Origin: Bixzunavirus cane17
Lineage: Duplodnaviria; Heunggongvirae; Uroviricota; Caudoviricetes
Virus record (IMG/VR): IMGVR_UViG_2974759174_000001
Direction: 5' to 3' (one strand)
DNA: 64,000 nt
Position numbers and translations under genes: made by a program. Below are positions 28,017 to 48,850 of this stretch, piece by piece (position 1 is the first letter of the stretch; each line of letters starts with the position of its first letter). The notes under the pieces were generated by a model. That model made no database searches, had not been told where the DNA came from, and saw nothing but the letters and a program-made list of their open reading frames with translations.

Positions 28017-28017
28017 C

Positions 28018-32841: not shown

Positions 32842-35800
32842 GTGAGTAGCCCCATCTACAAGGCCGGGTCCAACTGGTCGGCAGAGGTCAATCGCCTGCG
32901 CAAGGCGGGCGTGAACATGCCGAACAGCCCCACCATGGCCCGCGCCCAGGCTGCTGCGCTCCAGAACACCGTGGACAACAAGCCGCTGATCGACTACTTC
33001 CAGGGGCGCCGCCGCGCCGCCGAGGCCAACCGCCAGCGCCTGGCCAGCTACCGCAAGCAGGGCAACTTCGGCTCCAACATGCAGATCGCCATGCCCAAGA
33101 TCCGCCAGCCGCTGGGCACGCTGGCCGACAAGGGCATTCCGTTCAATGTCGAGGACGAAGAAGAGCTTCGGGTCATCAGACACTGGTGCAGACTCTTCTA
33201 TGCCACCCACGACCTGGTCCCGCTGCTCATCGACATCTACTCGAAGTTTCCGGTCGTCGGCATGGAGTTCGACTCCAAGGACCCGCTGATCAAGACGTTC
33301 TACGAGGACCTGTTCTTCGGCGAAGACCTCAACTACCTGGAGTTCCTGCCCGACCAGTTCGCGCGCGAGTACTTCACCGTCGGTGAGGTCACCTCGCTGG
33401 CGCACTTCAACGAGTCACTTGGCGTCTGGAGCTCCGAGGAGATCCTTAACCCCGACATGCTGCGTGTCAGCCGGTCGATGTTCGTCCAGCGCGAGCGTGT
33501 GCAGCTCATGGTCAAGGACCTCGTCGACCACCTGCGTCAGGGGCCGACCACGGCGGGCGGCAACATGTCGACCGTCGAGGAGACGCCGTCGGAGCGTGAG
33601 CAGCGGATGCGCGAGTTCCAGGACCTGCAGCGCCGCTACCCCGAGATCATCCAGGCCGCGATGCAGAACGACGGCCTCGACATCTCCGAGGCCCTGATCA
33701 GCCGCGTGGTCAACCGGCCCACCGCCTGGGCCACCCGGGGCGCCCCGCACCTGCTGCGCAGCTTCCGGACCCTGATGGCCGAAGAGTCGCTCAACGCCGC
33801 CCAGGACGCGGTGGCCGATCGCCTCTACAGCCCGCTGGTGCTGGCCACCCTGGGCATCGAGGACATGGGCGACGGCGAGCCGTGGATTCCCGACCAGGGC
33901 GAGCTCGACGAGGTCCGCGACGACATGCAGTCGCTGCTGGCCGCTGACTTCCGCCTGATGGTGCACAACTTCGGCCTCAAGGTCGAGAACGTGTTCGGGC
34001 GCGAGAGCGTGCCCAACCTCGACGCCGACTACGACCGCATCGAGCGCAAGCTGCTGCAGGCCTGGGGCATCGGTGAGGCGCTGATCTCCGGCGGCACCGG
34101 TGGCGCCTACGCCTCCAGCGCGCTCAACCGTGAGTTCGTCACCCAGATCATGACAGGCTTCCAGAACGCTCTCAAGCGCCACATCCGGCGCCGGTGCGAG
34201 GTGGTCGCCGAGGCGCAGGGTCACTATGACTACGACCTCAAGGGCGGGGTCCGCGTCCCGATCTACCGCGAGATCGTCGAGTACGACGAGGAGACCGGCC
34301 AGGAGTACATCCGCAAGGTCCCCAAGCTGCTCATCCCGGAGATCAAGTTCTCCTGCGTGGTTCCTGGCACCCAGGTTCTCACCCCGACCGGCCAGCGCAG
34401 CGTCGAGGACATCCAGCCTGGCGACGAGGTCATCGCCTGGGACGGCACCGGCTACGTCATCGACACCGCCCTACACACCGGCATCGAGCATCGCGACCGT
34501 CTGGTCGAGGTGACCACTGCGACCGGACGCACGGTGCGCTGCACCGCCGATCACCCGTTCTGGACTGACCGGGGATGGGTGCTGGCTGAGAACCTCACTA
34601 CCGACAGTCTGATTCGCACGTCTGCCGGTCAGTTGGCGGCGCACATCGAGTCTGATGACGACCTGGACATGCTGCGGTTTCTGGGTCTGCTGGTTGGTGA
34701 CGGCAACTACTCGACCACCCATGTGTCGCTTTCGGTCAGCGACCCCGAGGTGGATGCGTTCGTCTGCGAGCAGGCCGAGCGGATGGGCCTGACCGCCCGA
34801 CGGAAGGCCGATGCTCGCACCGACAAGGTGTGGTACCGGACGTTCGTCCGGCCCGCGCCGTGGAAGGGCAACGCGCTCCGCAACCCGCTGCACACGCTGC
34901 TGCGCGAGCAGGGCATGTGGGGCAAGAATGCCCACACCAAGCGGGTGCCGCCGATGGTGTGGGCGGCGGGGGCCAAGGGGCGCGCGGCGTTCCTGTCCGG
35001 CTACTTCGACGCGGACGGCTACGCCTGCCGCACCTCCGGCCTCAAGATCACGTCGGTCAACCGCCTCCTGCTGGACGACTGCCAGGTGCTGTTTGAGTCG
35101 CTGGGCATCCGCGCCCAGGTGCGCTCTTACGCCTACCGCTACGACGGCCAGAAGAACCCCGGCGTGCAGTCGGTCAACCACTTGACGGTCAGCAACAACC
35201 ACTACTTCCAGATGCTGCGGGACACCCTGTCGCCGGTAATCGGCAGCAAAACCGCCGCACTAGACGACATGGCCCGCCCGTCCACGCGGGGCCGGAAGGC
35301 TCCGCGCCCGGTGGAGTGGGATCAGGTCACGTCGGTGACCCACCTGGCTGAGGGCGGCGACATCGTCACCCTGGGCATCACCAGCACCCATACTCATGTC
35401 ACGGCGGGCCTGGTGTCGCACAACACGCTCAACCTGCGTGACGAGGCCCAAGAGCGTGCCTTCATCGCCCAGCTCAAGGGCATGGGCGTGCCGGTCAGCG
35501 ACAAGACGCTGGCGGTCAACATCGACATGAAGTTCGACCAGGAGCTGGAACGTCAGGCCGACGAGACCGTGCAGAAGCTCATGGCCACCGCACAGGCCAT
35601 GAAGAAGGTCCAGGACCTGTGCGACGCGCAGAACCTGCCCTACCCGCCGGAGCTGGCCCAGCACCTGCAGTCCACTCTGGCGCTGCGCCAGGGCAAGACC
35701 CAGACCGAGCTGGGCGAGGCCCAGGCGGTCGCGGGCGGGGCTCAGGCCGAACTGCAGACCAAGCAGATCGAGATGCAGGAAATGATGATGGACCAGCAGA

Positions 35801-36537
35801 TGGCCGGTGGGGTGATGCCCGGCCAACCGATGCTGCCCCCGGGCGCTGCCGGTCCGCCTCCGGGTGCTCCCGGCGATCCTGCTGCCGGTGGCCCGCCCCC
35901 GCCCGCCGGTGGTCCGATGGGCGGTCCTCCGGTGGCCCCGGCGCCTGGCGTCGCCGGGCCGGGCAACGCCCCGGCGAGCTTCTACGCGGCCAGCCTGCGC
36001 ACGGCGGACGCCATCAACGGCCCGACCGGCACCGGCCCGTCGGCAGACGGCCCGCTGGGTCCGACCGGCCCCGAGTTGCCGCCCGGTGTGCCCGAGCCGA
36101 CTGAGGTCCCGCGTAACCGTCAGCGTCCGGCGGAGTCCGACGACAACCATCCGGGTGGCAACCTCAAGCCCGCCAGCCGGAACCGCAAGCGCACCCGCAA
36201 AGGCCAGGAGGAGCCCCGTCGGCTCACCCGCTGGGAGAAGGGTCCCTCCAGCTACGGCAAGAGCAAGATGGCTTCCGAGGAGCATGTGGTTGCTCAGATC
36301 CGTCGGCGCGAGGTCGTTGCCAACTGGGACTGGTCACAGTTTGGTAACGCTCCCCGCGTTGCTGACTTGGTAGCTGACCCGCACTTTTACCAGGCCACCA
36401 ACATGCAGGCGTATCAGGGACAGTTGCAGGCTGACTGGCCCGAGATCCAGGCCGGTGGCGCCGAGGAGAGCCGCCGGATTCTGGACGATATGCTCAGCCA
36501 GTTTCAAGAGATCTTTGGTGTCGAACCGCAGTGGTAA
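32842..36537 (+). CDS. putative portal (head-tail connector) protein interrupted by an intein; 1231-aa precursor, 874-aa extein; no Walker A motif, so not a terminase
   Basis: intein starts CVVPGTQVLT after EIKFS and ends VSHN followed by T; Pro/Gly-rich C-terminus; the portal call is an inference from size and position. Confidence 0.6.
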   Translation: MSSPIYKAGSNWSAEVNRLRKAGVNMPNSPTMARAQAAALQNTVDNKPLIDYFQGRRRAAEANRQRLASYRKQGNFGSNMQIAMPKIRQPLGTLADKGIPFNVEDEEELRVIRHWCRLFYATHDLVPLLIDIYSKFPVVGMEFDSKDPLIKTFYEDLFFGEDLNYLEFLPDQFAREYFTVGEVTSLAHFNESLGVWSSEEILNPDMLRVSRSMFVQRERVQLMVKDLVDHLRQGPTTAGGNMSTVEETPSEREQRMREFQDLQRRYPEIIQAAMQNDGLDISEALISRVVNRPTAWATRGAPHLLRSFRTLMAEESLNAAQDAVADRLYSPLVLATLGIEDMGDGEPWIPDQGELDEVRDDMQSLLAADFRLMVHNFGLKVENVFGRESVPNLDADYDRIERKLLQAWGIGEALISGGTGGAYASSALNREFVTQIMTGFQNALKRHIRRRCEVVAEAQGHYDYDLKGGVRVPIYREIVEYDEETGQEYIRKVPKLLIPEIKFSCVVPGTQVLTPTGQRSVEDIQPGDEVIAWDGTGYVIDTALHTGIEHRDRLVEVTTATGRTVRCTADHPFWTDRGWVLAENLTTDSLIRTSAGQLAAHIESDDDLDMLRFLGLLVGDGNYSTTHVSLSVSDPEVDAFVCEQAERMGLTARRKADARTDKVWYRTFVRPAPWKGNALRNPLHTLLREQGMWGKNAHTKRVPPMVWAAGAKGRAAFLSGYFDADGYACRTSGLKITSVNRLLLDDCQVLFESLGIRAQVRSYAYRYDGQKNPGVQSVNHLTVSNNHYFQMLRDTLSPVIGSKTAALDDMARPSTRGRKAPRPVEWDQVTSVTHLAEGGDIVTLGITSTHTHVTAGLVSHNTLNLRDEAQERAFIAQLKGMGVPVSDKTLAVNIDMKFDQELERQADETVQKLMATAQAMKKVQDLCDAQNLPYPPELAQHLQSTLALRQGKTQTELGEAQAVAGGAQAELQTKQIEMQEMMMDQQMAGGVMPGQPMLPPGAAGPPPGAPGDPAAGGPPPPAGGPMGGPPVAPAPGVAGPGNAPASFYAASLRTADAINGPTGTGPSADGPLGPTGPELPPGVPEPTEVPRNRQRPAESDDNHPGGNLKPASRNRKRTRKGQEEPRRLTRWEKGPSSYGKSKMASEEHVVAQIRRREVVANWDWSQFGNAPRVADLVADPHFYQATNMQAYQGQLQADWPEIQAGGAEESRRILDDMLSQFQEIFGVEPQW
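34354..35424 (+). mobile_element. intein (357 aa) with LAGLIDADG homing endonuclease domain inside the putative portal gene
   Basis: Cys1 TGC 34354; block B TADHPFWT; LAGLIDADG motifs LRFLGLLVGDGNYS and AAFLSGYFDADGYA; terminal HN 35419-35424, +1 Thr. Confidence 0.75.
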
Positions 36538-38781: not shown

Positions 38782-39030
38782 ATGCCTATCATCCGCAACA
38801 TCAGCTACCACACCATCCAGACTCACCATGCCGACGAAGCCGAGTCCCTGGCGTTCTATCTCAACGAGCACGGAGTTTGTGCTCAAGCCAAGGGTGACGC
38901 CATCGACGTCCCGGTGCCGGACCGAGAGACCTTCGACAAAGTCGAGAAGCTCAAGGAGACCTGGGAGATGTTCTGGGAGACCTCGGACTCGGGTTTGTTC
39001 GGCCTGCCTCTTTATGTAAAGGAGGGCTAG
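38782..39030 (+). CDS. hypothetical protein (82 aa)
   Basis: RBS GGAGGA. Confidence 0.6.
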   Translation: MPIIRNISYHTIQTHHADEAESLAFYLNEHGVCAQAKGDAIDVPVPDRETFDKVEKLKETWEMFWETSDSGLFGLPLYVKEG

Positions 39031-39585
39031 GTGGAGTTCGTTGCCGACGACCGAATCCCGCCGGGCTATCACATCCCATCATCGTGGATGTTGCGTTCTG
39101 CCGACGCCGAACAGGCCAAGCAGACCGGCGGCATGGTCGCGCTCTATCCCTCGACGGAGTCGGCGCAGAAGATCGTGGTGCCCGGCGGGGAACCGATCGA
39201 CGACCTGCACCTGACGGTCACCTACTTCGGGCAGGACGTCACCGGGCAGGACCCGACCGAGCTGGTCGACTTCCTGTACTACCTGGCCCCGCAGTTCCCG
39301 CCGATCGAGGCGAACATCTTCGGCACGGCGGTGTTCAACTCGACCGGCGAGGACCCCTGCATCGTCTACCTGGTCGGCAACTCTCCGCACCTGACGCCGC
39401 TCTTCCAGCAACTCAAGCGGTTCGCGCTGGAACACTACCCCGGCGCTGCCGAGCAGCACGATCCGTGGATTCCGCACATCACTGCGGCCTACGGCTCAGG
39501 GGCGATGATCGACTACGAGGGCCCGGTGGTCTTCGACCGCATCGGCATCCGCTGGCCTGGCGCTGATCAGGACTTCAACCTGTAG
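39031..39585 (+). CDS. 2H-phosphoesterase superfamily protein (LigT-like 2'-5' RNA ligase / cyclic phosphodiesterase), 184 aa
   Basis: two H-x-T/S-x motifs HLTVTY and HITAAY at the expected spacing; RBS AAAGGAGGG. Confidence 0.7.
   Translation: MEFVADDRIPPGYHIPSSWMLRSADAEQAKQTGGMVALYPSTESAQKIVVPGGEPIDDLHLTVTYFGQDVTGQDPTELVDFLYYLAPQFPPIEANIFGTAVFNSTGEDPCIVYLVGNSPHLTPLFQQLKRFALEHYPGAAEQHDPWIPHITAAYGSGAMIDYEGPVVFDRIGIRWPGADQDFNL
39576..39585 (+). promoter_or_regulatory. copy 3 of motif tCAACCTGTAG (overlaps the LigT stop codon)
   Basis: identical 10-mer. Confidence 0.35.
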
Positions 39586-39595
39586 TAGGCCCAAG

Positions 39596-39631: not shown

Positions 39632-39633
39632 CA

Positions 39634-42600
39634 ATGGCGACGGTTTACACCGATTACGGTCCGGGCGAGATCATCGCATCGGAGACCGTGCGGGGCCGCA
39701 CTCAGTACCAGGTTCGAGTGGCCGGGTACGGGGAGTTCTGGCTGGACGCGACCAAGGTGGGCAGCGTCCACGAAGCGTGGGCCCCGCTGGACACCGACAA
39801 CTCGGTCAACCTTCCGTACGACCCCTCTCCGCAGTACCCCGCGCTGCCGGGCGACACCGAGAGCACCATTCAGCCGATCCACGAGATCGACGCCGACGAG
39901 CGGCTGTCCCCGGCGGACTCGATCACCTTCGAGGACCGCAGTGACGACGAGTCGATCATCGACGGCCACAGCGACAACTTCGCCAAGAGCGCTGCCTACG
40001 GCGACCCCACCACAAGCGAGCCCGGCTACAGCCACGGCCTGGAATGGGACGCCCCGGAGCGCAGCGAGTACGCGCACCCCGACTTCAAGCACTTTCACGA
40101 CGACCAGTACGAGGAAGAGGACCCGCTTCAGCAGGCCATGGCCGAAGAAGACGGCGCCCCCGACTGGCACCCCAGCGACCAGTACGGCGACCTGAACAAG
40201 CCGTACCCGGCGGACACCTGGCGCGGGTCGCATCCGGACCTGCCCGGCCACATGGCCAGCTCACACGAGGCCGCTGCCTTCCTCATCCCGCTCATGGGCG
40301 CCGGAGCCGGTGCTGCCGCTGGTGGAGCCGGGGCCGGTCTGGGCGGCGCGGTCGCCGGAGGCGTGGCCCGTGGCGTCGGCATGGGCGTGGCTCAGGACAT
40401 GCTCGGTGGTGGCGGCGACGGTCAGCAGGAGCCCGGCATGGTCGACCAGGCGATCGACACCATTCAGCCCGGACCCGGCTGGGGAGAGCTGCAGAAGGGC
40501 GCCGCTCTGGATCGGTGGCTGTCCGGACAGGACCAGGGGACCGGCACTGCTGCTGGACTCGGCGATCGCTACATCGACGTCACCGCTGCCGTCGACCCCA
40601 GCGACCCGATCTCGATGTTCCGGCACGACCCGGTCGCCTACATCAGCCGCACCGGCCACGTCCACGACGAGCCGGTCAGCGAAGAGATGCAGCACTACGG
40701 CCAGCTGGTCGAGGCCAACCCGCAGATCCGCGAGGCCGCGTGGAAGGACGTCCGGGCCAAGGCGATGCGTCTGCGCCGCGAGGGCCGGGTGCATGTCAAG
40801 GACGTCGCGCCGGACCGGATCTACGCCAGTGTCGACGGCGACCACGGCACCTATGAGGTGATGATCGCCAAGGGCGGTGCCTTCGGTGGCCTCGGTGGCG
40901 GTCACGCGATCAGCAACTGGCGTTGCGCGTGCGAGTGGGGCAAGTGGGCCTTCCAGCGCCGGATGACCTACGTCGGTCGTCTGTGCAGCCACGGCTACGC
41001 CGCTTACCTCACCATGCAGTCCGAGCACATGAAGGGCAAGCCGAGCCAGCGTCGTCGCTCGCCGTACCGCAAGCGTGCCGACGCGCTGCAGAACGGCCCG
41101 CAGCGCTTGGTGCCCGAGCTGGCCGTCAACGACCTCGACGACGCGCACACCTTCCTCGACGTCACCGAGGACGAGCGCAAGGAGACCGGGCCGGACGACA
41201 TCGTCAGCGAGAAGGACATCGTCCACTTCTCCCGGCTGATGGCCAAGTGCGACGCCGAACGTCTGCCCTACCCCCGGACCCTGGTGGCCTTCCTGGAGCG
41301 TTACGCCGACGACCAGTCCAAGGAGGACTGGAAGATCGAGGACACCGGCAAGGCGGGACCGGCGCTCGAAGAGCTGCGCGACTGGGCCGACACCTCGCAG
41401 GAGGACTACCTCGGCAACATGGAGGAGCGCGTCGAGGACATCCGCGACGCCGTCGACACCGCGCGCGAGCACGGCGTGGACGCCTCGCAGCTGACCGCCG
41501 GAGTGCACTTCCGCACCGCCGCCCCGAAGCCCGAGGTGACCTCGGATGGTTCGGGCGGCAAGATTCAGCAGACCCGGCAGTTCTCCCGTGACCCGGGAAC
41601 CTCGATCAGCGACTGGCTGGGTGTCGGCGGGACCCCCGGTGCCGCTGGCACCCGGTCCAACGGCGCAGGCCAGTCGATGAACCAGAGCCGTGACTCCGGA
41701 GGAGTTCAGGACACCGATTCCACCCAGGCCAAGTCGAGCGGCGGTGGCTTCGACCCGAACATGAACGACCGCAGCAACCGTCCGGTCTCCGAGGGCGGCG
41801 GTGCCACCAACGGCACTCCGGCAGGATGGTCGGCGGCTGACGCGGCCAGCCCGGGCAGCAACAACGGCCCGCATGGTGCGGCAGGCAGCGCGACCAACCC
41901 GACACCGGGCCAGCCGGGCAACAACACCCCGGCTGTGCCGGGTGCGGCCCCGAAGAACAACCTGGCCGGACCGGCAGGGACCAACACCCCCAGCGCTACC
42001 CCTCCCGGCGGCGGACAGATCGGCCAGGGTGAGTACCAGATCCAGTCCGGCGACACCCTGAGCGACATCGCGCAGCGTGCCGGATACGGCGGCGATTACA
42101 ACTCGCTGGCTCAGCAGAACAACATCGCCGACCCCGACAAGATCTTTGCGGGCGACACGATCAACATCGGCACCCCGGGCGGCGGAGCGACGACACCGGA
42201 CGTCGACCTCTCGGCAGCGACGCCGGGCGGCGGAGCGGATGCCAACAACACCGCCTCGGACTTCGCGGGCACGAGCACCAGCGGCGCGACCGACTCCATG
42301 GGGACGAACAACACCCCGACCGACAACGCGGCGGCGCAGACCACCACCGAGACCAACAAGACAGGCCGTCGTCGGCGCCAGGCGGCGCCGTCGGGCAGCT
42401 CGGCCACTCCGGCTCCGTCCACCACGCCGGATGACGAGGGTCTGGTCGACTCGATGGACAACCCGGCAGCGCCGACCGGAGGCACCCCGGCCAGCAACAC
42501 CGCGCTCAGCTCGCCGAACAACGATCTGGGTGACCCGAGCAGTGCGATCGACACCGGAGCGACCACCGGCGGTACGCCGGACGCCACCGGTGCGGGCACA

Positions 42601-43437
42601 GACGCCTCCACTCCGGGCGGGTTCGACCTGAGCCAGTTCAACGACACCATCAGCGGTGTCGGGGACGCGGTGAACACCGGCGTCGGTATCGCCAGCGACA
42701 TCGCCGGTGGTGTGGGTGACGTGGTCAGCGGCATCGGCTCGATCTTCAGCTCGCGTCAGGACTACGACGACTGGCACCGCTACGCCTACCCCGAGGCGGG
42801 CGACCACAAGCCGTTCGCCGGTTCGGGCCCGCAGGAGCCGCTGAAGTTCACCCCGTCGACCGAGTACGCCGACAAGGCCCGCCGGAAGATGGACGACGTC
42901 ACCGACCTGGACTACGACCACAGCAAGCCGGTCAATCCCCGACAGTCGTCGGCGGGCGGCGGCATCCAGCGCGCCGGACGTGGCGCGCGCCGGACGGTCG
43001 AGCCGGTGGTGGTCCGCGAGCAGCGTCCGGGTGGGCGTGTAGCCGCGCAGCAGCCCCACGTGCCGGACGACTTCGACCCACTGGCCCCGCGCACGGCGGC
43101 GAGCTTCGACGACCCGTACGACGCTCCTGATGTCGATCAGGCCGCAATGCGCATCGCGGCCAACACCGAGGGCGACATCGTCGCGGCCTTCCAGCGCAGC
43201 GCCGGAGCCGAAGCCATCATGTCCAGCTCGGGTGGCGGCGCAGCGAGCCAGTACGACGACTTCTCCTCGTCGCCTGCGGTGATCGCGGCCATGCAGCGCA
43301 CCGCCGGACGGCACTACTCGCCATCGGAGCAGGCCGAGCTGATCCGCGAGGGCGACCGTGGCGGGGCCGGAAACCTCGACGCGCTGGACCTGCGCGGAAC
43401 TCACTACGAGGCAGAGCACAGCGTCGGCCTGTGGTGA
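39634..43437 (+). CDS. giant virion-associated-like protein (1267 aa) with Gly/Ala-rich hydrophobic segment, SWIM zinc finger and LysM peptidoglycan-binding domain; candidate internal/ejection protein
   Basis: SWIM CACEWGKW ... RLCSHGYAA; LysM YQIQSGDTLSDIAQRAGYGGDYNSLAQQNNIADPDKIFAGDTINIG; GAGAGAAAGGAGAGLGGAVAGG. Confidence 0.8.
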   Translation: MATVYTDYGPGEIIASETVRGRTQYQVRVAGYGEFWLDATKVGSVHEAWAPLDTDNSVNLPYDPSPQYPALPGDTESTIQPIHEIDADERLSPADSITFEDRSDDESIIDGHSDNFAKSAAYGDPTTSEPGYSHGLEWDAPERSEYAHPDFKHFHDDQYEEEDPLQQAMAEEDGAPDWHPSDQYGDLNKPYPADTWRGSHPDLPGHMASSHEAAAFLIPLMGAGAGAAAGGAGAGLGGAVAGGVARGVGMGVAQDMLGGGGDGQQEPGMVDQAIDTIQPGPGWGELQKGAALDRWLSGQDQGTGTAAGLGDRYIDVTAAVDPSDPISMFRHDPVAYISRTGHVHDEPVSEEMQHYGQLVEANPQIREAAWKDVRAKAMRLRREGRVHVKDVAPDRIYASVDGDHGTYEVMIAKGGAFGGLGGGHAISNWRCACEWGKWAFQRRMTYVGRLCSHGYAAYLTMQSEHMKGKPSQRRRSPYRKRADALQNGPQRLVPELAVNDLDDAHTFLDVTEDERKETGPDDIVSEKDIVHFSRLMAKCDAERLPYPRTLVAFLERYADDQSKEDWKIEDTGKAGPALEELRDWADTSQEDYLGNMEERVEDIRDAVDTAREHGVDASQLTAGVHFRTAAPKPEVTSDGSGGKIQQTRQFSRDPGTSISDWLGVGGTPGAAGTRSNGAGQSMNQSRDSGGVQDTDSTQAKSSGGGFDPNMNDRSNRPVSEGGGATNGTPAGWSAADAASPGSNNGPHGAAGSATNPTPGQPGNNTPAVPGAAPKNNLAGPAGTNTPSATPPGGGQIGQGEYQIQSGDTLSDIAQRAGYGGDYNSLAQQNNIADPDKIFAGDTINIGTPGGGATTPDVDLSAATPGGGADANNTASDFAGTSTSGATDSMGTNNTPTDNAAAQTTTETNKTGRRRRQAAPSGSSATPAPSTTPDDEGLVDSMDNPAAPTGGTPASNTALSSPNNDLGDPSSAIDTGATTGGTPDATGAGTDASTPGGFDLSQFNDTISGVGDAVNTGVGIASDIAGGVGDVVSGIGSIFSSRQDYDDWHRYAYPEAGDHKPFAGSGPQEPLKFTPSTEYADKARRKMDDVTDLDYDHSKPVNPRQSSAGGGIQRAGRGARRTVEPVVVREQRPGGRVAAQQPHVPDDFDPLAPRTAASFDDPYDAPDVDQAAMRIAANTEGDIVAAFQRSAGAEAIMSSSGGGAASQYDDFSSSPAVIAAMQRTAGRHYSPSEQAELIREGDRGGAGNLDALDLRGTHYEAEHSVGLW

Positions 43438-43472: not shown

Positions 43473-46400
43473 GTGGCTACCAAGCACGTACTGCACGCCG
43501 AACGCCGGGATGTGACGACCCGGCCTACGGACAAGGCGATCCGGCGCAAGCTGAAGCACGCCGAGACTCTCGGCGACTTCAAGATGCGCCCGGGTTACCT
43601 CTACACCGTGGTCAGGGCCATCTCGGCGCGAGTTAACCAGAACTACGATGGTTGGCCATCAGACGAGCTAAAGAAGGCCGCGCACACCTTCATCGGAAAG
43701 CCGGTCTTCGTCAACCACGAGAACTACGACCCCAAGAAGGCCCGGGGAGTTGTTGTCGCGGCTCGTTACGTCGAGAACGGCAATGACAAGTTCATCGAGG
43801 TCATTCAGGAAATCGATGCCAAGCGTTTCCCAAAGCTGGCCCACGAGATCCGCACCGGCGGACTTGACTCTGTGTCGATGGGCGCCGAGGCCGGATTCAC
43901 GATCTGCTCGTACTGCGGCAACAAGGCGACCGATGTCCCCGAGATGTGCGACCACGTCCTGTACCACAAGGGCGAGCGTTTGCCACGGCACAACCGCAAG
44001 ACGGGCAAGGTCGAGGACGTTCTCGTCTACGAGTCCTGCCACAAGATCAGCTTCTTCGAGTTGAGCTACGTCTTCGACCCCGCCGACGAGACCGCTGTGG
44101 CTTCGCGCGTGCTGGTGGCCAACAACAAGACCGCCGGTGACTGCCCGCCCGGCCAGGACTGCACGGTCGGCGGCAATCCCGAGGACCAGATCACTCCGGA
44201 CTCGGCCAACAATCCGGTCAACGGCGGCAGCAACGACAGCAGCAGCACCGGCGGCGGTGCTGGAGCGAGCGCGGCCACCACGGTTTCTGGCGGCGAATTG
44301 GGCGAGCCTGGCGAGTCGGTGTCCGCCGGAGGAGGAGCCGGGGCCGACGGCATCATGGACGCCTCGCGCCCGCTCTATGACCAGCTCAAGACGATCGACC
44401 CGAACGCCGATATCGGCGGCTACCGCCCTGGCGGCGACGGCTACGACGAGCACAACAACGGCGCGCTCGACTACATGACCACCGATCCGGCAGTGGCCGA
44501 GCAGGTCAAGCAGAAGGCGTTCGAGAACGGCGCTCCGTACGTCATCTGGCAGCAGCAGCTGCACTACCCCGACGGCTCCACCAAAGCGATGGAGGACCGA
44601 GGTAGTCCGACGCAGAACCACATGGACCACGTGCACACGGGCCCGCTGACCGGACCGAAGGCTGCCCGGATCGAGCACACGGTTCTGGTTACCGCCGGGT
44701 TCGTCGATCCGGCTGTCGACTGCACCGTGTGCCGTCAGGCCCGGGTGGCCACCAAGTGCCACTACTGCGCCGGAGACGCCGAGGAGGGCTTCTCCTCGTG
44801 TGCCGCGCATCGGCCCATGGAAGAGAAGAAGTTCAGGGCCGCACAGCGAGAGGAGGCCGCGATGACATTCGAGGCTAGCGTGATTCGTGAGTTCCTCGGT
44901 GGCCCGCCACCCCCGGCCCGTCCGATGACCGGCATCGAGCACCAGCCTGGTCTCAATCCCGAGGACTATGTCGTGCCGTACAAGGGGCGCGGCTACCAGC
45001 CCGGCATGCCGGTAGACGTCTACCGCAACTTGCACTCGGAGAAGACCGGCACCGGTCTGTGGTCAGTCCGGCACAAGGGTCAGGTGGTCGGTCACGCCGA
45101 CTTCATCCACATGCCGCAGGGCAAGTTCTTCGTGGGCGAGGGCGGCAACGCCAAGGTTCAGGAGACCGGCCAGAAGAACGTGCACGCCGGTGCGCGTGGC
45201 GTGCTGGGCCCGGTCCCGCACGACCACGACCCGTCGCAGTACGTCGGCATCACCTACAACCCCAAGGCCGGAGACACCAGCTTCTACCAGCGCGAGACCA
45301 AGGAGCCGGTCTGGGAGGCCGATCATGTGCACCTGGGTCCCGACGGCAAGGCCTACACCCTCGGTCCGCGCAGCGGCATGGCCAGCGCCGACCAGAAGGT
45401 GTTCGAGGCCATGGTCCTGCAGGCCTACGGCGAGACCGAGGCGCCCACCCGTGTGGACACCCTGCGTGAAGAGGGCTCGGCGCCCGAGGACGACAACAAC
45501 GACTTCTACCACTACGTCGAGCCGCCCAAGGAGCTGCAGACCCCGGATCTGTCCGAGGCCGCACAGATCGACCGTCAGCAGGCCGAGAACCAGGGCGACA
45601 CGATGGACGTCGACGGCGACCCCGGACCGCACAGCGTGATGAACCAGGAGCCCGTCCCGGGCGCCGGTGGGGCCCCGCAGCAGCAGTTCATGACGCTGCA
45701 GATCCCGATCCCGCCACAGGGCCAGGCGCCCGGCGTGCCGATGCAGTCGTTCGCGCCGCCCGCGCCCGCCCCGGCGCCACCCATGCCTCCCCAGCAGATC
45801 GCCGCGTCGACGCTGGACTTCTTCGACCGGTACTACGGGCGCCGCGTGGCCAACTGGCTCGACGCCATTGAGGCCGGACGCGAGTTCACCGCCGAGGAGG
45901 CCTCGGACTACAGGCGGGAAGCAATGAAGCTGTCGACCCTGCAAAAAGCACCCTCAGCTTCAACAACAAGTAGGAACCCCATGAAAGGAACCGCCAACAT
46001 GGCACGCAGCAATCTCGCCTCGCGCGGCAAGGTGGTGACGGCTGGTCGTCGGCAGCACTTCGCCGAGGGTCCGTTGGTGGACTCGGGCGACCAGAGCCGT
46101 AACGACCAGGGCGAGCAGGAAGAGGCCTTCATCTCGACCACGCCGCCCGAGGAGTCCGTGGTGGCTCCCACCGACGACACCCCCAACATCTCGAACACCG
46201 AGCAGAACCTCGTCGCCCGCGTGAAGCGAGGCCGTGCCCAGCTCATGGCCGACGCGCAGAAGCTGGCTCAGCTCCAGGCTCAGCGCCAGCGCCGCATGGC
46301 CAACGAGGCCGGTGGCCCGGTGGCTACCGAGGTCAACCCGACGGTGAACTCGGGCCCCGGCGCCGAGGAGCTCACCGGCGATGACTTCGAGTCGGCCAAC

Positions 46401-47195
46401 CCCAACGACGGTGTCGTCGAGACTCAGCCCAAGGATGCGAGCCTGCATGCGTTCCGCACCTTCGACTCGTGGCTGAAGCGCAAGACGGGCAAGTCGGCGC
46501 GGTACCACACCAGCGCGACCATTCGCCGTGCGGCGGACGACTTCAGCCGTCAGTCGAACGTCTCGGTCCAGGCCCTGTTCCCGGCCCTGGGAATCGTGCT
46601 GCGAGAAGCACGAAAGAACGAAAAGGCAGCAGCCAACACCAAGGGAGCCAACATGCGCAAGCGTGCCGACGAGAAGCTGGAAGTCGCAGCTCCGGATGGA
46701 CGTGTTGACGTCGAGGCTCCGACCCGAGGAACGACTGACGCCGAGGCGCAGGCCTCGCAGTTCGACCTCAACGACTTCGGCAACAACGCCGGAGACGACA
46801 TCGCCGATCCGGATCTGAGCACCGATCAGAACTGGGCCCCCGGTGAGGCCAAGAAGTCCAGCAAGGTCAAGACGGCAGGTGGCGTTCTCGCCTTCCGTCT
46901 GGCGGAAGCCATGATCGCTGCTGGCATCGAGCCGAACACCGTCGAGCGGAAGTATGCGCTGGCGGCAGAGTTCGAAAACATGAATCGCGGTGCGGTCCAG
47001 GACCGTATCGCACTGTGCGAGCGCTTCGTGCCGGTTCTGGCCGCAGCTCGCCGACAGGTCGCCAGCGGTAGTACTCGCGGGGCCGCACTGAAGTCCCCCA
47101 TCCCTTCGGGCCTGGTGCAGGGCGCACAGCGCACCGCCGGACGCGCAGTGGTGGCGGCAAACGACCCCCGTAACGACGCTTCGCTCTTCATCTAA
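43473..47195 (+). CDS. giant fusion protein (1240 aa): N-terminal prohead-protease-like domain (S78/U35-like), M15-family zinc peptidase domain, zinc ribbons, Pro-rich and coiled-coil C-terminus
   Basis: VNHENYDPKKARGVVV ... GGLDSVSMGAEAGF (His/Ser protease-like); GGYRPGGDGYDEHNNGALDYMTTD ... DHVHTG (M15 SxHxxGxAxD ... DHxH); GTG with GAGGAGG RBS. Confidence 0.8.
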   Translation: MATKHVLHAERRDVTTRPTDKAIRRKLKHAETLGDFKMRPGYLYTVVRAISARVNQNYDGWPSDELKKAAHTFIGKPVFVNHENYDPKKARGVVVAARYVENGNDKFIEVIQEIDAKRFPKLAHEIRTGGLDSVSMGAEAGFTICSYCGNKATDVPEMCDHVLYHKGERLPRHNRKTGKVEDVLVYESCHKISFFELSYVFDPADETAVASRVLVANNKTAGDCPPGQDCTVGGNPEDQITPDSANNPVNGGSNDSSSTGGGAGASAATTVSGGELGEPGESVSAGGGAGADGIMDASRPLYDQLKTIDPNADIGGYRPGGDGYDEHNNGALDYMTTDPAVAEQVKQKAFENGAPYVIWQQQLHYPDGSTKAMEDRGSPTQNHMDHVHTGPLTGPKAARIEHTVLVTAGFVDPAVDCTVCRQARVATKCHYCAGDAEEGFSSCAAHRPMEEKKFRAAQREEAAMTFEASVIREFLGGPPPPARPMTGIEHQPGLNPEDYVVPYKGRGYQPGMPVDVYRNLHSEKTGTGLWSVRHKGQVVGHADFIHMPQGKFFVGEGGNAKVQETGQKNVHAGARGVLGPVPHDHDPSQYVGITYNPKAGDTSFYQRETKEPVWEADHVHLGPDGKAYTLGPRSGMASADQKVFEAMVLQAYGETEAPTRVDTLREEGSAPEDDNNDFYHYVEPPKELQTPDLSEAAQIDRQQAENQGDTMDVDGDPGPHSVMNQEPVPGAGGAPQQQFMTLQIPIPPQGQAPGVPMQSFAPPAPAPAPPMPPQQIAASTLDFFDRYYGRRVANWLDAIEAGREFTAEEASDYRREAMKLSTLQKAPSASTTSRNPMKGTANMARSNLASRGKVVTAGRRQHFAEGPLVDSGDQSRNDQGEQEEAFISTTPPEESVVAPTDDTPNISNTEQNLVARVKRGRAQLMADAQKLAQLQAQRQRRMANEAGGPVATEVNPTVNSGPGAEELTGDDFESANPNDGVVETQPKDASLHAFRTFDSWLKRKTGKSARYHTSATIRRAADDFSRQSNVSVQALFPALGIVLREARKNEKAAANTKGANMRKRADEKLEVAAPDGRVDVEAPTRGTTDAEAQASQFDLNDFGNNAGDDIADPDLSTDQNWAPGEAKKSSKVKTAGGVLAFRLAEAMIAAGIEPNTVERKYALAAEFENMNRGAVQDRIALCERFVPVLAAARRQVASGSTRGAALKSPIPSGLVQGAQRTAGRAVVAANDPRNDASLFI

Positions 47196-47225: not shown

Positions 47226-47768
47226 ATGACTTTCCGTCCACCAGCGTCCAATCCCGGCCAGAAGCGGACGCTCGTTCCGCGCTACGCCAACACTCAGGCC
47301 ACGCCCTGGGCAGGCTTTCTGGACCCGGATCTGGACGTTGACTTCGACATCCTGCCCGGCACCGTGATGCAGCGGCTGTACGGCGACGTGTTCGCTCCGT
47401 ACACCGGTGAAGCGGGCACCGTGCCCTTCGGCCTGTCGGCCCTGTTCCACGCTCCTCGTCTGGGCGTGACCGAGGTCTCCAGCGCGGGCACCGGCCTGTT
47501 CACCGTGTGGGTGGGCGACAGCCAGGCCGTCTTCGACGTGCTGGCACCAGCATTCGACGTGGAAGCCGACTGGCCCGCCGCAGGCGAGACCGGCCCGGCC
47601 CGCGTCATGTTGACGGCGAACAGCAAGGGACGACTGACTCCCGAGGGCGTGACCCCGGAGAACGTCATCGCCGAGCTGATCGACATCCCGTCGACGGACA
47701 AGATCACCATCCGCCTCAACCGCCTCGACCTGGCGGCGACCGGCGGTGGTCTGGCGGGAGGCAGCTAA
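47226..47768 (+). CDS. hypothetical structural protein (180 aa), possible scaffold or decoration protein
   Basis: RBS CAGGAGGA; position just upstream of the capsid gene. Confidence 0.65.
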   Translation: MTFRPPASNPGQKRTLVPRYANTQATPWAGFLDPDLDVDFDILPGTVMQRLYGDVFAPYTGEAGTVPFGLSALFHAPRLGVTEVSSAGTGLFTVWVGDSQAVFDVLAPAFDVEADWPAAGETGPARVMLTANSKGRLTPEGVTPENVIAELIDIPSTDKITIRLNRLDLAATGGGLAGGS

Positions 47769-47771
47769 GCC

Positions 47772-48773
47772 ATGACTCTTCCAGTTGCAGTCGGTAGCGG
47801 CCTCGGTCGCTTCGCCAAGGCATCCGACGACTACGTGGCCGACATTGTCGAGGCCAAGCAGCGCATGGGCGGACGCAAGCTCAGCGCTCGCGAGAAGCAG
47901 GCCAAGCTCGCTCACATCCTGAGCGACAAGGTCGGCGGCATCCAGCGCCTGGGCCAGTCGATGATCGGCCCGATCCAGCTCCAGCTGCGTTACCAGGGCA
48001 TCCTGCGTAACGTCCTGCTGGAGGACACGCTGACCCCCGGCGTGCCGATCCAGTACGACGTGCTGGACGACCTGGGCCAGGCCTACATGCTGCACGGCAA
48101 CGAGGGCGAGATCCGCATCACCCCCTTCGAGGGCAAGCGCATCGAGGTCCAGCTGTTCCGCATCGCGAGCTTCCCGCAGATCAAGAAGGAAGACCTGTAC
48201 TACCTCCGCAGCAACATCGTGGAGTACACGCAGGACATGACCAAGCAGGCCATCATGCGCCAGGAGGACTCGCGCCTCGTGACGCTGCTGGAAGCTGCAG
48301 CGGTCTCCTACCGCGTCGTGGACAGCTCGGCTCAGCCGGGCGTCGGCGCACTGCCCAACGAGATCACCATCGCAGGCTCGCACCTGATGCCCGATGATCT
48401 CTACACGGCGGTGACCTACACCGACCAGCGTCAGCTGGACAGCTCGCGCCTGCTGGCGAACCCGCAGGAGTACCGCGACCTGTACCGGTGGGACATCAAC
48501 ACGACCGGTTGGGCCTTCAAGGACTCGGTGGTCGCTGGCGAGCGCATCGTCCAGTTCGGCGAGTTCCAGATCGGCAAGTCGATCATCATCCCGCGTGGCA
48601 CCGTCTACCTGACCCCGGAGCCCGAGTTCCTCGGCGTCTTCCCGGTCATGTACTCCCTCGATGTCGAGGAGGACAACAAGGTGGAGCGGTTCAACAAGGG
48701 CTGGGTCATGGACGAGCTGGTCGGCATGGCCGTGCTCAATCCAAGAGGCATAGTCATCCTTAGGAAAGCCTGA
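47772..48773 (+). CDS. putative major capsid protein (333 aa, HK97-fold-like)
   Basis: size, position after protease/scaffold, followed by the strongest terminator in the window; fold assignment is an inference. Confidence 0.6.
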   Translation: MTLPVAVGSGLGRFAKASDDYVADIVEAKQRMGGRKLSAREKQAKLAHILSDKVGGIQRLGQSMIGPIQLQLRYQGILRNVLLEDTLTPGVPIQYDVLDDLGQAYMLHGNEGEIRITPFEGKRIEVQLFRIASFPQIKKEDLYYLRSNIVEYTQDMTKQAIMRQEDSRLVTLLEAAAVSYRVVDSSAQPGVGALPNEITIAGSHLMPDDLYTAVTYTDQRQLDSSRLLANPQEYRDLYRWDINTTGWAFKDSVVAGERIVQFGEFQIGKSIIIPRGTVYLTPEPEFLGVFPVMYSLDVEEDNKVERFNKGWVMDELVGMAVLNPRGIVILRKA

Positions 48774-48820: not shown

Positions 48821-48850
48821 AGACCCCCTCCTTCGGGAGGGGGTCTTTTC
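48821..48850 (+). terminator. rho-independent terminator AGACCCCCTCC-ttcg-GGAGGGGGTCT plus TTTTC
   Basis: perfect 11-bp stem with U-tract. Confidence 0.8.

What the first reader, a model, noticed from the sequence alone, without database searches (positions are those of the whole stretch)
39031..39585. LigT-like 2H phosphoesterase next to thyX
The double H-x-T/S-x motif (HLTVTY and HITAAY) defines the 2',3'-cyclic phosphodiesterase / 2'-5' RNA ligase fold. Phage copies may repair tRNAs cleaved by host anticodon nucleases or degrade cyclic-nucleotide defence signals. Sitting beside the tRNA cluster and the NTase, this hints at an RNA-repair or anti-defence toolkit.
Basis: established knowledge. 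Interest (0 to 1): 0.55.

Follow-up and report, generated by a model that had tools for sequence, protein, structure and literature searches.

The report
Head-module 2H phosphoesterase of a mycobacteriophage
This gene of mycobacteriophage Cane17 really does encode a 2H-type phosphodiesterase, but it belongs with the genes that build the phage head, not with tRNA repair genes, so it is more likely an enzyme carried in the capsid to cut host nucleotide signals or RNA ends; the gene and this idea were already on record, and its substrate has never been tested.

Summary
The window is the first 64 kb of Mycobacterium phage Cane17 (cluster C, Bixzunavirus). The ORF at 39031-39585 is gp84, deposited as 'RNA ligase' in over 200 related phages.

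Both H-x-T motifs are present and are conserved 80/80 across viral relatives. A confident AlphaFold model matches only 2H-fold structures.

gp84 is not a ThpR/LigT orthologue and not an Acb1 by family thresholds. It is not beside the NTase (36.7 kb away) or a tRNA cluster (11 kb and over 50 kb away). No RNA ligase is annotated in the genome.

The conserved context is the head module: portal, small partner gp83, 2H, two giant proteins, cement protein, major capsid. ThyX is present in only 6 of 29 free-standing loci. In 51 of 80 loci the domain is fused into large head proteins (MuF, portal, protease-like). One fused member, Gordonia phage GMA2 Orf10, was found by mass spectrometry in purified virions, with a peptide across the catalytic motif.

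The best reading is a late-made, probably capsid-delivered phosphodiesterase. Its substrate is unknown. Aravind's group proposed this class in 2017 and 2022, so this is a new member of a known kind.

The parts
39031..39585 (+). gp84 CDS, 184 aa, 2H-fold phosphoesterase (deposited as 'RNA ligase', SEA_CANE17_84)
   Evidence: ORF; identical to MH697579.1 gene 84; Pfam PF13563 E 1.4e-5; AF2 pLDDT 87.6; all 49 top Foldseek PDB hits are 2H fold; the only 2H gene in the 160-kb genome
39208..39219 (+). First catalytic motif H60-L-T62-V
   Evidence: Invariant in 34 homologues, in 35 fusion ORFs and in 80/80 viral loci
39475..39486 (+). Second catalytic motif H149-I-T151-A, followed by near-invariant Y154
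   Evidence: H149 and T151 80/80, Y154 68/80; aligns to the Acb1 'PHITLSY' segment and to the virion-derived GMA2 peptide ...YTPHITAV...
39457..39459 (+). H143, a third histidine (Q-H-x-P-W-x-P-H-x-T) invariant in the sampled clade; not present at the aligned position in T4 Acb1 or in GMA2 Orf10
   Evidence: 80/80 viral loci; invariant in A1 and A2; the Acb1 alignment shows D/Y there; GMA2 alignment
39031..39126 (+). N-terminal segment: residues 1-21 variable and disordered, residues 22-32 conserved 'R-x-ADAEQAK-x-T' ahead of strand 1; candidate N-terminal lid or targeting/processing signal (inference)
   Evidence: pLDDT 53-58 for residues 1-30, short helix at 27-32; A26 and K30 at least 90% conserved; N-terminal lids exist in phage 2H PDE-9 / PDB 9Q2G, which is the best TM-score match
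39019..39025 (+). Shine-Dalgarno AAGGAGG for gp84, lying inside the last codons of gp83
   Evidence: Sequence
38782..39030 (+). gp83, 82 aa, conserved upstream partner, translationally coupled (TAG abuts the GTG of gp84)
   Evidence: A profile built from 15 upstream ORFs finds a gp83 homologue ending at or overlapping the 2H start in 27 loci, all free-standing copies on myovirus-type contigs, and in none of the fusion loci; phrog_2964 E 2.5e-55, function unknown
32842..36537 (+). Context: portal protein gp79 (contains an intein), upstream boundary of the head module
   Evidence: Annotation; portal homologues lie upstream of the 2H gene in 22 of 29 free-standing loci; Intein_splicing/Hint hits in homologues
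39634..43437 (+). Context: gp85, 1267 aa, LysM-containing giant protein immediately downstream
   Evidence: LysM PF01476 E 5.8e-10; phrog_2940; conserved downstream neighbour
43473..47195 (+). Context: gp86, 1240 aa, head-maturation-protease-like N-terminal region plus an L5 gp82-like domain
   Evidence: phrog_18299 'head maturation protease' E 1.1e-18 at residues 61-211; PF25735 E 3.5e-22
47226..48773 (+). Context: gp87 cement protein and gp88 major capsid protein, downstream boundary of the head module
   Evidence: PF23968 Phage_cement_3 E 4e-99; annotation
48821..48846 (+). Context: the only strong intrinsic terminator on the + strand in 32-49.5 kb, just after the major capsid gene; suggests portal-to-capsid, including gp84, is one late transcription unit (inference)
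   Evidence: 11-bp stem with 8 G-C pairs and a T-run

Best explanation
gp84 is a catalytically competent, metal-independent 2H phosphoesterase. It belongs to an actinophage clade that is tied to head morphogenesis.

Shown: it has the 2H fold with an intact H60-x-T62 / H149-x-T151 tetrad. It lies between the portal and major capsid genes. It is translationally coupled to a conserved small partner, gp83. Its relatives are either free-standing in that same position or fused into MuF, portal or protease-like head proteins. One fused relative is physically present in purified virions.

Inferred: gp84 is made late together with the head proteins and is probably loaded into the capsid and released into the cell with the DNA. 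There the two histidines would act as general acid and base, cutting a ribose-phosphate linkage through a 2',3'-cyclic phosphate intermediate. The most likely substrates are host nucleotide immune messengers (cyclic di- or oligonucleotides, or 2'-5'-linked oligonucleotides). RNA 2',3'-cyclic-phosphate ends are the second choice.

The deposited name 'RNA ligase' is a historical misnomer for this fold.
For: Fold and catalysis:
- Pfam PF13563, with 33/34 homologues matching.
- Invariant tetrad in 34 homologues and in 80/80 loci.
- AF2 model pLDDT 87.6; Foldseek hits are exclusively 2H enzymes, including LigT, VP3, ns2 and phage PDE-9.

Head linkage:
- Cane17 gene order is portal gp79, gp83, gp84, gp85, gp86 (protease-like), cement, MCP.
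- The same order without thyX occurs in a relative whose 2H protein is 40% identical.
- 22 of 29 free-standing loci are bracketed by portal/MuF upstream and head genes downstream.
- 51 of 80 loci have the domain inside 370-1360 aa ORFs.
- The partners Pfam identifies in those ORFs are MuF (6), portal (2) and Mu-like protease (1); no RNA-repair domain appears.
- Examples: Abt2graduatex2 gp11 is MuF plus 2H; Ali17 gp16.

Packaging of a family member: purified GMA2 virions gave 18 Orf10 peptides, including 825-846 across the second catalytic motif (PMC4524720 S5 Table). Orf10 residues 713-875 match the gp84 family profile at E 6e-29.

Transcription: no + strand promoter-like site or terminator lies between the portal and the terminator after the MCP.

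Prior proposal of the same idea: PMC5512222 section 20 and PMC9503650 section 21.
Against: - No proteomic, expression or biochemical data exist for gp84 or for any free-standing member, so packaging of the solo protein is extrapolated from the fused forms.
- Head-module placement is not universal. In Rhodococcus phage Finch the gene follows queuosine genes. In Stormageddon it lies after the MCP next to an RNR gene. In L028 and L034 the portal is 6-7 kb downstream of it.
- A free-standing 20-kDa protein needs a capsid-targeting signal, and none was identified.
- Substrate cannot be read from the fold. Some viral 2H groups cleaved none of 18 messengers.
- gp84 scores below the Acb1 family cutoff and lacks Acb1's C-terminal lid.
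- Only one of the 18 GMA2 peptides comes from the 2H domain itself.
Confidence: 0.42

Rival explanations
1. A late-expressed cytoplasmic anti-signalling phosphodiesterase that is not packaged. It is co-expressed with head genes because host CBASS-type sensors are triggered by head-assembly proteins, so the signal is destroyed at the time it is made.
For: The fold and tetrad match Acb1-type enzymes. The C-terminal half resembles Acb1 (PHIT..Y...PVV.DR). Six of 34 homologues hit Pfam Acb1 at E<0.01. Co-transcription with head genes is inferred. Papers whose titles and abstracts report that phage virion-assembly proteins and proteases trigger CBASS were listed (10.1101/2023.05.21.541620, PMC12991175) but not read in full. 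A cellular homologue sits next to a GGDEF cyclase.
Against: This reading does not explain why the domain is covalently fused to MuF, portal and protease-like head proteins in 51 of 80 loci. It also does not explain why the fused GMA2 protein, including its 2H region, is in virions. gp84 is below the Acb1 cutoff and has no C-terminal lid.
Confidence: 0.25
2. One reading: an RNA-repair 2',3'-cyclic phosphodiesterase (LigT/ThpR-like) that heals tRNAs cut by host anticodon nucleases, working with the phage's tRNAs, NTase and kinase.
For: The top sequence and fold matches include LigT and CPDases. The genome encodes many tRNAs, a tmRNA, an RlaP 'RNA repair pathway' NTase (gp3), a PNKP phosphatase-domain protein (gp248) and a Ro60 homologue.
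Against: gp84 is not a ThpR equivalog (20.7 bits against 65.7). No RNA ligase is annotated to seal the ends. The repair-like genes lie 36 kb or more away, and gp248 and gp3 sit about 7 kb from each other across the genome ends, not near gp84. None of 35 fusion ORFs carries a ligase or kinase domain. Iyer et al. never saw this 2H type with RNA ligases. The conserved context is the head module.
Confidence: 0.12
3. A capsid-delivered RNase effector: a Usb1-like 2H enzyme that trims or cleaves host RNA after injection, analogous to MuF-linked toxin domains. gp83 would act as its inhibitor or chaperone in the producing cell.
For: Usb1 structures are among the fold matches. Iyer et al. proposed exactly this alternative for MuF/portal-fused 2H domains. 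The neighbourhood includes MuF-ADP-ribosyltransferase toxin fusions and an ART gene near the Stormageddon copy. The tightly coupled small partner gp83 occurs only with free-standing copies.
Against: Usb1 matches are weaker than the LigT, VP3 and PDE-9 matches. There is no evidence of toxicity. gp83 has no detectable similarity to known immunity proteins.
Confidence: 0.12
4. A role in head assembly or DNA packaging itself, for example processing a nucleotide or RNA cofactor, with no role in host conflict.
For: Only the genomic position and the fusions to assembly proteins.
Against: No known head-assembly step needs a 2H esterase (own knowledge). The gene is absent from most tailed phages that have the same kind of head proteins, and it moves out of the module in some relatives. 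It has a cellular homologue in a non-phage context.
Confidence: 0.04

Closest known systems
2H domains of phage 'polyvalent'/head proteins and their solo counterparts (Iyer, Burroughs, Anand, de Souza, Aravind 2017, PMC5512222; Iyer et al. 2022, PMC9503650)
   Same: The same fold and the same fusions to MuF and portal were recovered here independently. There is no association with RNA ligases. The proposal is the same: packaging into heads and injection, acting as an RNase or as a degrader of nucleotide immune signals.
   Different: Those papers are computational and do not name the cluster C gene. Added here: the conserved gp83 partner, the count of free-standing versus fused copies, the 80/80 conservation of the tetrad plus a third histidine, and the link to published GMA2 virion mass spectrometry.
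Acb1 (anti-CBASS 1, phage T4 / FBB1) and phage BCSR5 2H PDE-9 (PDB 7T26/7T27, 9Q2G/9Q2Y)
   Same: Compact 2H fold and an HxT/HxT tetrad. The C-terminal half is similar (PHIT..Y...PVV.DR). 9Q2G gives the best TM-score and rmsd of the PDB hits (0.56, 4.1 A). PDE-9 has an N-terminal lid, and gp84 has a conserved N-terminal segment.
   Different: Pfam Acb1 scores 14.6 bits against a cutoff of 27. gp84 has no C-terminal lid, because the protein ends with its last strand. It has an extra invariant H143. It lies in the head module and has head-protein fusions, which the Acb1 papers read here do not describe. Its substrate is untested.
ThpR/LigT RNA 2',3'-cyclic phosphodiesterase (E. coli LigT 5LDM, D. 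radiodurans CPDase 5H7E, T. thermophilus 1IUH)
   Same: Top Foldseek E-values and detectable sequence similarity over both motifs.
   Different: TIGR02258 scores 20.7 bits against 65.7. After the second motif gp84 has a near-invariant Tyr, where 5H7E and 1IUH have HITLAR. The family is viral and head-linked, and almost absent from bacterial genomes: 5 loci among the representative genomes of 185,579 species.
Rotavirus VP3 C-terminal 2',5'-phosphodiesterase domain (5AF2, 4YE2, 6O3V)
   Same: A 2H domain fused to a larger virion-core protein; it degrades a host nucleotide immune messenger, 2'-5' oligoadenylate (fold hits; function from PMC5512222 ref 109 and own knowledge). It is the closest conceptual precedent for a particle-associated 2H anti-signalling domain.
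   Different: It is from a eukaryotic dsRNA virus, shares only 10-14% identity, and has a different partner domain (a capping enzyme).

Membership tests
2H phosphoesterase superfamily | Two H-x-T/S-x motifs, one in each lobe | tested here: met
   H60-L-T-V and H149-I-T-A; invariant in 34 homologues and in 80/80 viral loci
2H phosphoesterase superfamily | Bilobed alpha+beta 2H fold | tested here: met
   AF2 pLDDT 87.6, pTM 0.81. All 49 top Foldseek PDB hits are 2H proteins, with TM-scores only 0.44-0.58, partly because of the disordered 25-residue N-terminus. This is a predicted structure, not a solved one.
2H phosphoesterase superfamily | Pfam 2_5_RNA_ligase2 (PF13563) at or above the gathering score | tested here: inconclusive
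   gp84 scores 25.6 bits against a cutoff of 27, E 1.4e-5. 33 of 34 homologues match at E<0.01, best 5.7e-11, and most carry precomputed PF13563.
2H phosphoesterase superfamily | Metal-independent phosphodiesterase activity through a 2',3'-cyclic phosphate | not testable with these tools
   Needs an enzyme assay
ThpR/LigT RNA 2',3'-cyclic phosphodiesterase (TIGR02258 equivalog) | Score at or above the equivalog cutoff | tested here: not met
   20.7 bits against a cutoff of 65.7
ThpR/LigT RNA 2',3'-cyclic phosphodiesterase (TIGR02258 equivalog) | Genomic or functional association with RNA end-healing and sealing enzymes (for the phage RNA-repair reading) | tested here: not met
   No RNA ligase is annotated in the 160-kb genome. 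The PNKP-phosphatase-domain gp248, RlaP gp3 and Ro60 gp223 are 36 kb or more away. No repair domain occurs in 35 fusion ORFs. The genome-wide part rests on deposited annotation, not on a full HMM scan.
Acb1 (PF23474) | Pfam Acb1 at or above the gathering score | tested here: not met
   14.6 bits against a cutoff of 27, E 0.028; 6 of 34 homologues at E<0.01
Acb1 (PF23474) | HxT/HxT catalytic tetrad | tested here: met
   defined in PMC9117128
Acb1 (PF23474) | Flexible C-terminal lid with a stacking aromatic residue (W147 in FBB1 Acb1) | tested here: not met
   gp84 ends at residue 184, directly after strand 180-183. A conserved N-terminal segment might substitute, as in PDE-9, but that is not shown.
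Acb1 (PF23474) | Cleavage of 3'3'-cGAMP and other CBASS signals | not testable with these tools
   Needs an enzyme assay
Head-associated (MuF/portal-linked) phage 2H domains and solo counterparts, sensu Iyer et al. 2017 | Specific homology to 2H domains embedded in MuF, portal or protease head proteins | tested here: met
   tblastn hits under 'capsid maturation protease and MuF-like fusion protein' genes. blastp gp84 against Abt2graduatex2 gp11 gives 1.5e-27 and against Ali17 gp16 5e-23. MuF, portal and Mu-protease domains occur in the same ORFs.
Head-associated (MuF/portal-linked) phage 2H domains and solo counterparts, sensu Iyer et al. 2017 | Location in the head-morphogenesis gene block | tested here: met
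   Cane17. 22 of 29 free-standing loci are bracketed by portal/MuF and head genes. Exceptions are Finch, L028, L034 and L037.
Head-associated (MuF/portal-linked) phage 2H domains and solo counterparts, sensu Iyer et al. 2017 | Physical presence in the virion | not tested
   Not tested for gp84. It is met for a fused relative through published data: GMA2 Orf10 peptides from purified virions, including 825-846 across the second motif.

The most novel reading that the evidence does not exclude
gp84 is a pre-packaged 'first-strike' enzyme. It is loaded into the capsid with the help of its dedicated partner gp83 (as adaptor, chaperone or inhibitor) and ejected with the DNA. It then destroys host nucleotide immune messengers before any phage gene is expressed. 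That would make head-delivered signal degradation a widespread strategy of actinobacteriophages, and it would define a biochemically new 2H group with a third essential histidine (H143) and an N-terminal lid.
Probability: 0.2. Interest if true: 0.7.

Novelty: new member of a known kind. Interest (0 to 1): 0.36.

Why it matters
If gp84 is delivered in the capsid and cuts immune messengers, it would be an experimentally accessible case of anti-defence that acts before phage gene expression. The system is convenient: M. smegmatis as host, with BRED or CRISPY-BRED phage engineering available. It would also matter for mycobacteriophage therapy, because host range against mycobacteria that carry nucleotide-signalling defences could depend on such cargo.

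At the practical level, the 'RNA ligase' label on this gene in over 200 deposited genomes is misleading. The same domain is labelled 'capsid maturation protease' in many Gordonia and Streptomyces phage genomes. Recognising both as one head-linked 2H phosphoesterase family would correct those annotations.

Tried and rejected
(1) Shared partner domain. I tested whether the domain fused to 2H in siphoviruses (Ali17 gp16 N-terminus) is homologous to the protease-like N-terminus of Cane17 gp86. hhalign gave probability 0.1, so there is no detectable homology.

(2) gp83 identity. A profile search against PDB sequences found nothing (best E 0.32). The single-sequence AF2 model is only moderate (pLDDT 66.6). 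Its Foldseek search gave no significant hit (best E 0.026, generic ferredoxin-like, PII-like and UreE-like). I did not build on the PII-like resemblance.

(3) Shared N-terminal signal. I looked for the N-terminal 'ADAEQAK' segment in other head proteins as a common protease or targeting signal. The only other occurrence is 'ADAEQ' at residue 11 of gp76. That is too little to conclude anything.

(4) PADLOC defence-protein models gave no hit.

(5) Stop-codon read-through. gp83 and gp84 are in the same frame, separated by one TAG. Read-through fusion is rejected because in Skog and in the P0103 contig the pair overlaps by 4 nt in different frames.

(6) Literature. I found no virion proteomics or biochemistry for cluster C gp84 homologues. 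The mycobacteriophage 'phosphoesterase' paper PMC12287305 concerns a metallophosphoesterase, an unrelated fold. The Doherty et al. preprint lists no actinophage member in the supplement held.

(7) Bacterial genome scan. The scan with the 34-sequence alignment failed for lack of a conserved stretch and was repeated with a 13-sequence alignment.

(8) Not run. I did not run the 1.84-billion-protein profile search or a second large homologue search for gp83. Neither could change the verdict, because their outputs carry no genomic context.
Full report
IDENTITY OF THE SEQUENCE
The window is bases 1-64000 of Mycobacterium phage Cane17 (MH697579.1 / NC_054716.1; cluster C, genus Bixzunavirus, a 160-kb myovirus of M. 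smegmatis). Bases 38700-39700 match it at 100% identity. The finding's ORF, 39031-39585 on the + strand, is gene 84, deposited as 'RNA ligase'. The same gene is present at 90% identity or more in about 200 deposited phage genomes under the same name.

CHECK OF THE OBSERVATION
The ORF is real: GTG start, 184 aa. A strong Shine-Dalgarno, AAGGAGG, lies at 39019-39025 inside the end of the upstream gene, and GC3 is 0.89. HLTVTY is at residues 60-65 and HITAAY at residues 149-154.

The motif by itself is not specific. Eleven of 78 annotated CDSs in the window contain two or more H-x-[TS]-x matches. The stricter hydrophobic form occurs twice or more only in gp84 and in the 1231-aa portal.

Homology and structure settle the matter:
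- Pfam 2_5_RNA_ligase2 (PF13563) matches at E 1.4e-5. Its 25.6 bits is just under the 27-bit gathering score.
- 33 of 34 diverse homologues match PF13563 at E<0.01.
- H60, T62, H149 and T151 are invariant in those 34 homologues, in 35 fusion proteins and in 80 of 80 loci from a viral contig collection.
- An AlphaFold2 model built on the alignment is confident (pLDDT 87.6, pTM 0.81; residues 1-25 disordered).
- Its 49 best Foldseek matches in the PDB are all 2H-fold proteins: LigT/CPDases, rotavirus VP3, coronavirus ns2, Usb1, AKAP18 and a phage phosphodiesterase, 9Q2G.

WHAT IT IS NOT
- It is not an orthologue of the cellular RNA 2',3'-cyclic phosphodiesterase ThpR/LigT. The NCBIfam equivalog model scores 20.7 bits against a cutoff of 65.7.
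- It is not an Acb1 by family threshold: 14.6 bits against 27. It also lacks Acb1's C-terminal lid, because the protein ends with its last beta-strand.
- Even so, the C-terminal half is the part most like Acb1 (PHITAAY...PVVFDR against PHITLSY...PVVLDR). The best superposition in the PDB, 9Q2G, is an Acb1-group enzyme whose lid is N-terminal.
- gp84 has a conserved N-terminal segment (R22, A26, K30; 'ADAEQAK') just before strand 1. That segment could be such a lid. This is inference only.
- A third histidine, H143, is conserved in 80 of 80 viral loci. It is absent at the aligned position in T4 Acb1.

- The only nucleotidyltransferase, gp3 (an RlaP 'RNA repair pathway' family protein), is at 470-2335, 36.7 kb upstream.
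- The only tRNAs in the window are at 27581-28092, 11 kb upstream.
- The large tRNA/tmRNA cluster is at 92.8-100 kb of the genome.
- The genome does hold RNA-repair-flavoured genes: gp3 RlaP, gp248 (which matches only the phosphatase domain of PNKP) and a Ro60 homologue, gp223. They lie elsewhere. gp248 and gp3 are about 7 kb apart across the ends of the circularly permuted genome.
- No RNA ligase is annotated in the genome.

THE REAL CONTEXT IS THE HEAD MODULE
The gene order is:
- portal gp79
- gp80, gp81
- ThyX gp82 (interrupted by an intein with an HNH domain)
- gp83
- gp84
- gp85 (1267 aa, LysM)
- gp86 (1240 aa; residues 61-211 match a head-maturation-protease PHROG at 1.1e-18)
- gp87 (cement protein)
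- gp88 (major capsid protein)

The only convincing + strand terminator between 32 and 49.5 kb follows the capsid gene. There is no promoter-like site on the + strand in between. This is consistent with one late transcription unit, which is an inference.

COMPARATIVE EVIDENCE
In a 136-kb metagenomic relative the 2H protein is only 40% identical. The order there is portal, an 84-aa gene, 2H, two giant ORFs, cement, capsid, with no thyX. Gordonia phage Skog repeats the Cane17 order, thyX included.

I sampled 80 loci from viral contigs (32-96% identity) and classified them:
- 29 carry a free-standing 2H gene of 166-310 aa. Of these, 22 are bracketed by a portal or MuF gene upstream and head genes downstream. 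ThyX lies upstream in only 6.
- 51 carry the 2H domain inside an ORF of 370-1360 aa, at the N-terminus, in the middle or at the C-terminus.
- In 35 of these fusion ORFs, Pfam recognises MuF in 6, portal domains in 2 and a Mu-like prohead protease in 1. No RNA ligase, kinase or other repair domain appears.
- PHROG matches point the same way. 18-20 of the 35 share one partner module, found in families labelled portal, virion structural protein or unnamed.
- Worked examples: Streptomyces phage Abt2graduatex2 gp11 has MuF at 115-241 and 2H at 334-496. Gordonia phage Ali17 gp16 has 2H at 412-572.

Counterexamples exist and are reported. In Rhodococcus phage Finch the gene follows queuosine-synthesis genes. 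In Stormageddon it lies just after the capsid gene, next to a ribonucleotide reductase and near an ADP-ribosyltransferase. In two contigs the portal is 6-7 kb downstream of it.

EXPERIMENTAL EVIDENCE FROM THE LITERATURE FOR A FAMILY MEMBER
Dyson et al. 2015 analysed purified Gordonia phage virions by mass spectrometry. For phage GMA2 only three proteins were detected: orf9, orf10 and orf16 (PMC4524720, S5 Table). Orf10 is 883 aa, and its residues 713-875 match the gp84 family profile at E 6e-29. The 18 reported peptides map to residues 142-846. One of them, SEVGDYDAYTPHITAVTGQQAR (825-846), spans the second catalytic motif, which aligns with H149-I-T151 of gp84. So the 2H domain of a fused relative is physically present in virions. 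For the free-standing gp84 this remains an extrapolation.

A CONSERVED PARTNER
The 82-aa gene gp83 (38782-39030) ends where gp84 begins. A profile built from upstream ORFs finds a gp83 homologue directly upstream of the 2H gene in 27 loci. All are free-standing copies on large myovirus-type contigs, and none is a fusion locus. Its function is unknown. There is no Pfam family, no PDB relative and only a generic ferredoxin-like prediction. A role as chaperone, adaptor or inhibitor of gp84 is a hypothesis.

DISTRIBUTION
The family is essentially viral and actinobacterial. A scan of one genome for each of 185,579 bacterial and archaeal species returned five loci. Four are in Actinomycetota, mostly Mycobacterium. 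One of them, in the M. barrassiae chromosome, is in a cellular setting between an ABC-transporter operon and a PAS-GGDEF diguanylate cyclase. That is a single, weak hint toward cyclic-nucleotide chemistry.

MECHANISM
Established knowledge of 2H enzymes comes from PMC9117128, PMC5512222 and the Doherty et al. preprint. The two histidines act as general acid and base, and the threonines hold the phosphate. Cleavage proceeds through a 2',3'-cyclic phosphate without metal ions.

The best-supported explanation is that gp84 is such an enzyme, that it is made with the head proteins, and that it is probably carried in the capsid into the next host. There it would cut nucleotide immune messengers or, less likely, RNA cyclic-phosphate ends.
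- Shown: the fold, the intact active site, the head-module synteny, the fusions, and virion presence of one fused relative.
- Inferred: late co-transcription, packaging of the solo protein, and the substrate.

Substrate cannot be deduced from the fold. In the Doherty et al. screen, some structural groups of viral 2H enzymes cleaved none of 18 messengers, and specificity tracked subtle differences in the core.

RIVALS
(a) A late cytoplasmic anti-signalling enzyme that is not packaged. This is plausible for the solo form but does not explain the fusions or the GMA2 data.
It is weakened by the failed ThpR test, the missing ligase, the distance to the repair-like genes and the absence of repair domains in any fusion.
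(c) An injected Usb1-like RNase effector, with gp83 as inhibitor or chaperone. Iyer et al. proposed the RNase part. It is not excluded.
(d) A role in assembly itself. This is unlikely.

COMPARISON WITH WHAT IS KNOWN, AND NOVELTY
The gene is already deposited and named, and the name 'RNA ligase' is a historical misnomer for the fold. The class, meaning 2H domains fused to MuF or portal together with their solo counterparts, was described computationally by Aravind's group in 2017 and 2022. They proposed that these domains are head-packaged and injected, and they noted that this 2H type is never linked to RNA ligases.

This is therefore a new member of a known kind. The additions from this work are the gp83 partner, the counts of free-standing and fused copies, the extra invariant histidine, and the connection to existing virion proteomics.

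Interest is moderate. A specialist would not be surprised by a phage 2H enzyme. The head-delivery question is open, it is testable in a tractable system, and no member of this clade has been assayed.

Noticed in passing
window 38782-39030 (+): gp83, an 82-aa protein of unknown function (phrog_2964), is a conserved, translationally coupled upstream partner of the free-standing 2H gene in 27 loci. It is absent from every locus where the 2H domain is fused into a larger protein. The predicted fold is a small ferredoxin-like beta-alpha-beta-beta-alpha unit, with no significant structural match.
   Followed up: partly
window 39595-39632 (+): A perfect 13-bp stem (GUUCCUCCUCGAA / UUCGAGGAGGAAC; -31.6 kcal/mol for the 76-nt segment folded, z = -4.0) lies between gp84 and gp85. 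Its 3' arm contains the GAGGAGG Shine-Dalgarno of gp85 (ATG at 39634). There is no T-run. It may limit gp85 translation or act as a U-less terminator or RNA-stability element.
   Followed up: partly
window 37295-38761 (+): ThyX gp82 is split by an intein that carries an HNH endonuclease domain (Thy1 in two stretches, Intein_splicing 9.8e-15, HNH 1.2e-8). The RefSeq copy of the genome labels the whole gene 'HNH endonuclease'.
   Followed up: partly
window 32842-36537 (+): The portal protein gp79 (1231 aa) also appears to contain an intein. The translation shows a Hint-like insert (CVVPGTQ...VSHN), and homologous portals on related contigs carry Intein_splicing/Hint_2 hits.
   Followed up: no
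window 43473-47195 and 39634-43437 (+): gp86 combines a head-maturation-protease-like N-terminus (residues 61-211) with a Phage_L5_gp82 domain (511-628). gp85 has a LysM domain (810-854) and a Cys/His motif, 'WRCACEWGKW...CSHGY', that looks SWIM-zinc-finger-like. Both are giant proteins sitting where a scaffold or protease would normally be.
   Followed up: partly
L095 6950-7531 (Mycobacterium barrassiae NZ_JACKUK010000023.1): A 45%-identical homologue of gp84 sits in a cellular, non-prophage context. A branched-chain amino-acid ABC transporter operon lies upstream and a PAS-GGDEF diguanylate cyclase immediately downstream.
   Followed up: partly
window 470-2335 (+); genome 153269-153790 (L006 41269-41790): The 'nucleotidyltransferase' gp3 is an RlaP-family protein with two RlaP stretches (E 2.3e-49). 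The deposited 'polynucleotide kinase' gp248 matches only the HAD phosphatase domain of PNKP and no kinase domain. The two genes are about 7 kb apart across the ends of the circularly permuted genome.
   Followed up: partly
window 28573-31995 (+), residues 11-15 of gp76: The N-terminus of the 1140-aa protein gp76 contains 'AAADAEQE', echoing the conserved 'ADAEQAK' segment at the N-terminus of gp84. It could be chance (about 0.1 expected, by my own rough estimate) or a shared processing or targeting signal.
   Followed up: no
P0001 (phage I3, 303 aa), P0002 (phage Gabriel, 239 aa), H54-H59: Deposited start codons for this gene differ widely among near-identical cluster C phages: 165, 184, 239 and 303 aa. 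The long versions overlap gp83 and are probably mis-called starts.
   Followed up: no
L002 6002-9754 (Streptomyces phage Abt2graduatex2 gp11): In this MuF-2H fusion the second motif reads H-V-A-A-T-Y, with the threonine replaced by alanine. All 80 IMG/VR loci keep the threonine. It may be a weakened or inactive copy.
   Followed up: no
L011 3239-7768: On a 57-kb siphovirus-type contig the gene before the 2H gene encodes a 1509-aa protein that combines MuF, an intein, an ADP-ribosyl exotoxin domain and Rho_N. This is a head-delivered toxin-type polyvalent protein in the same module.
   Followed up: no
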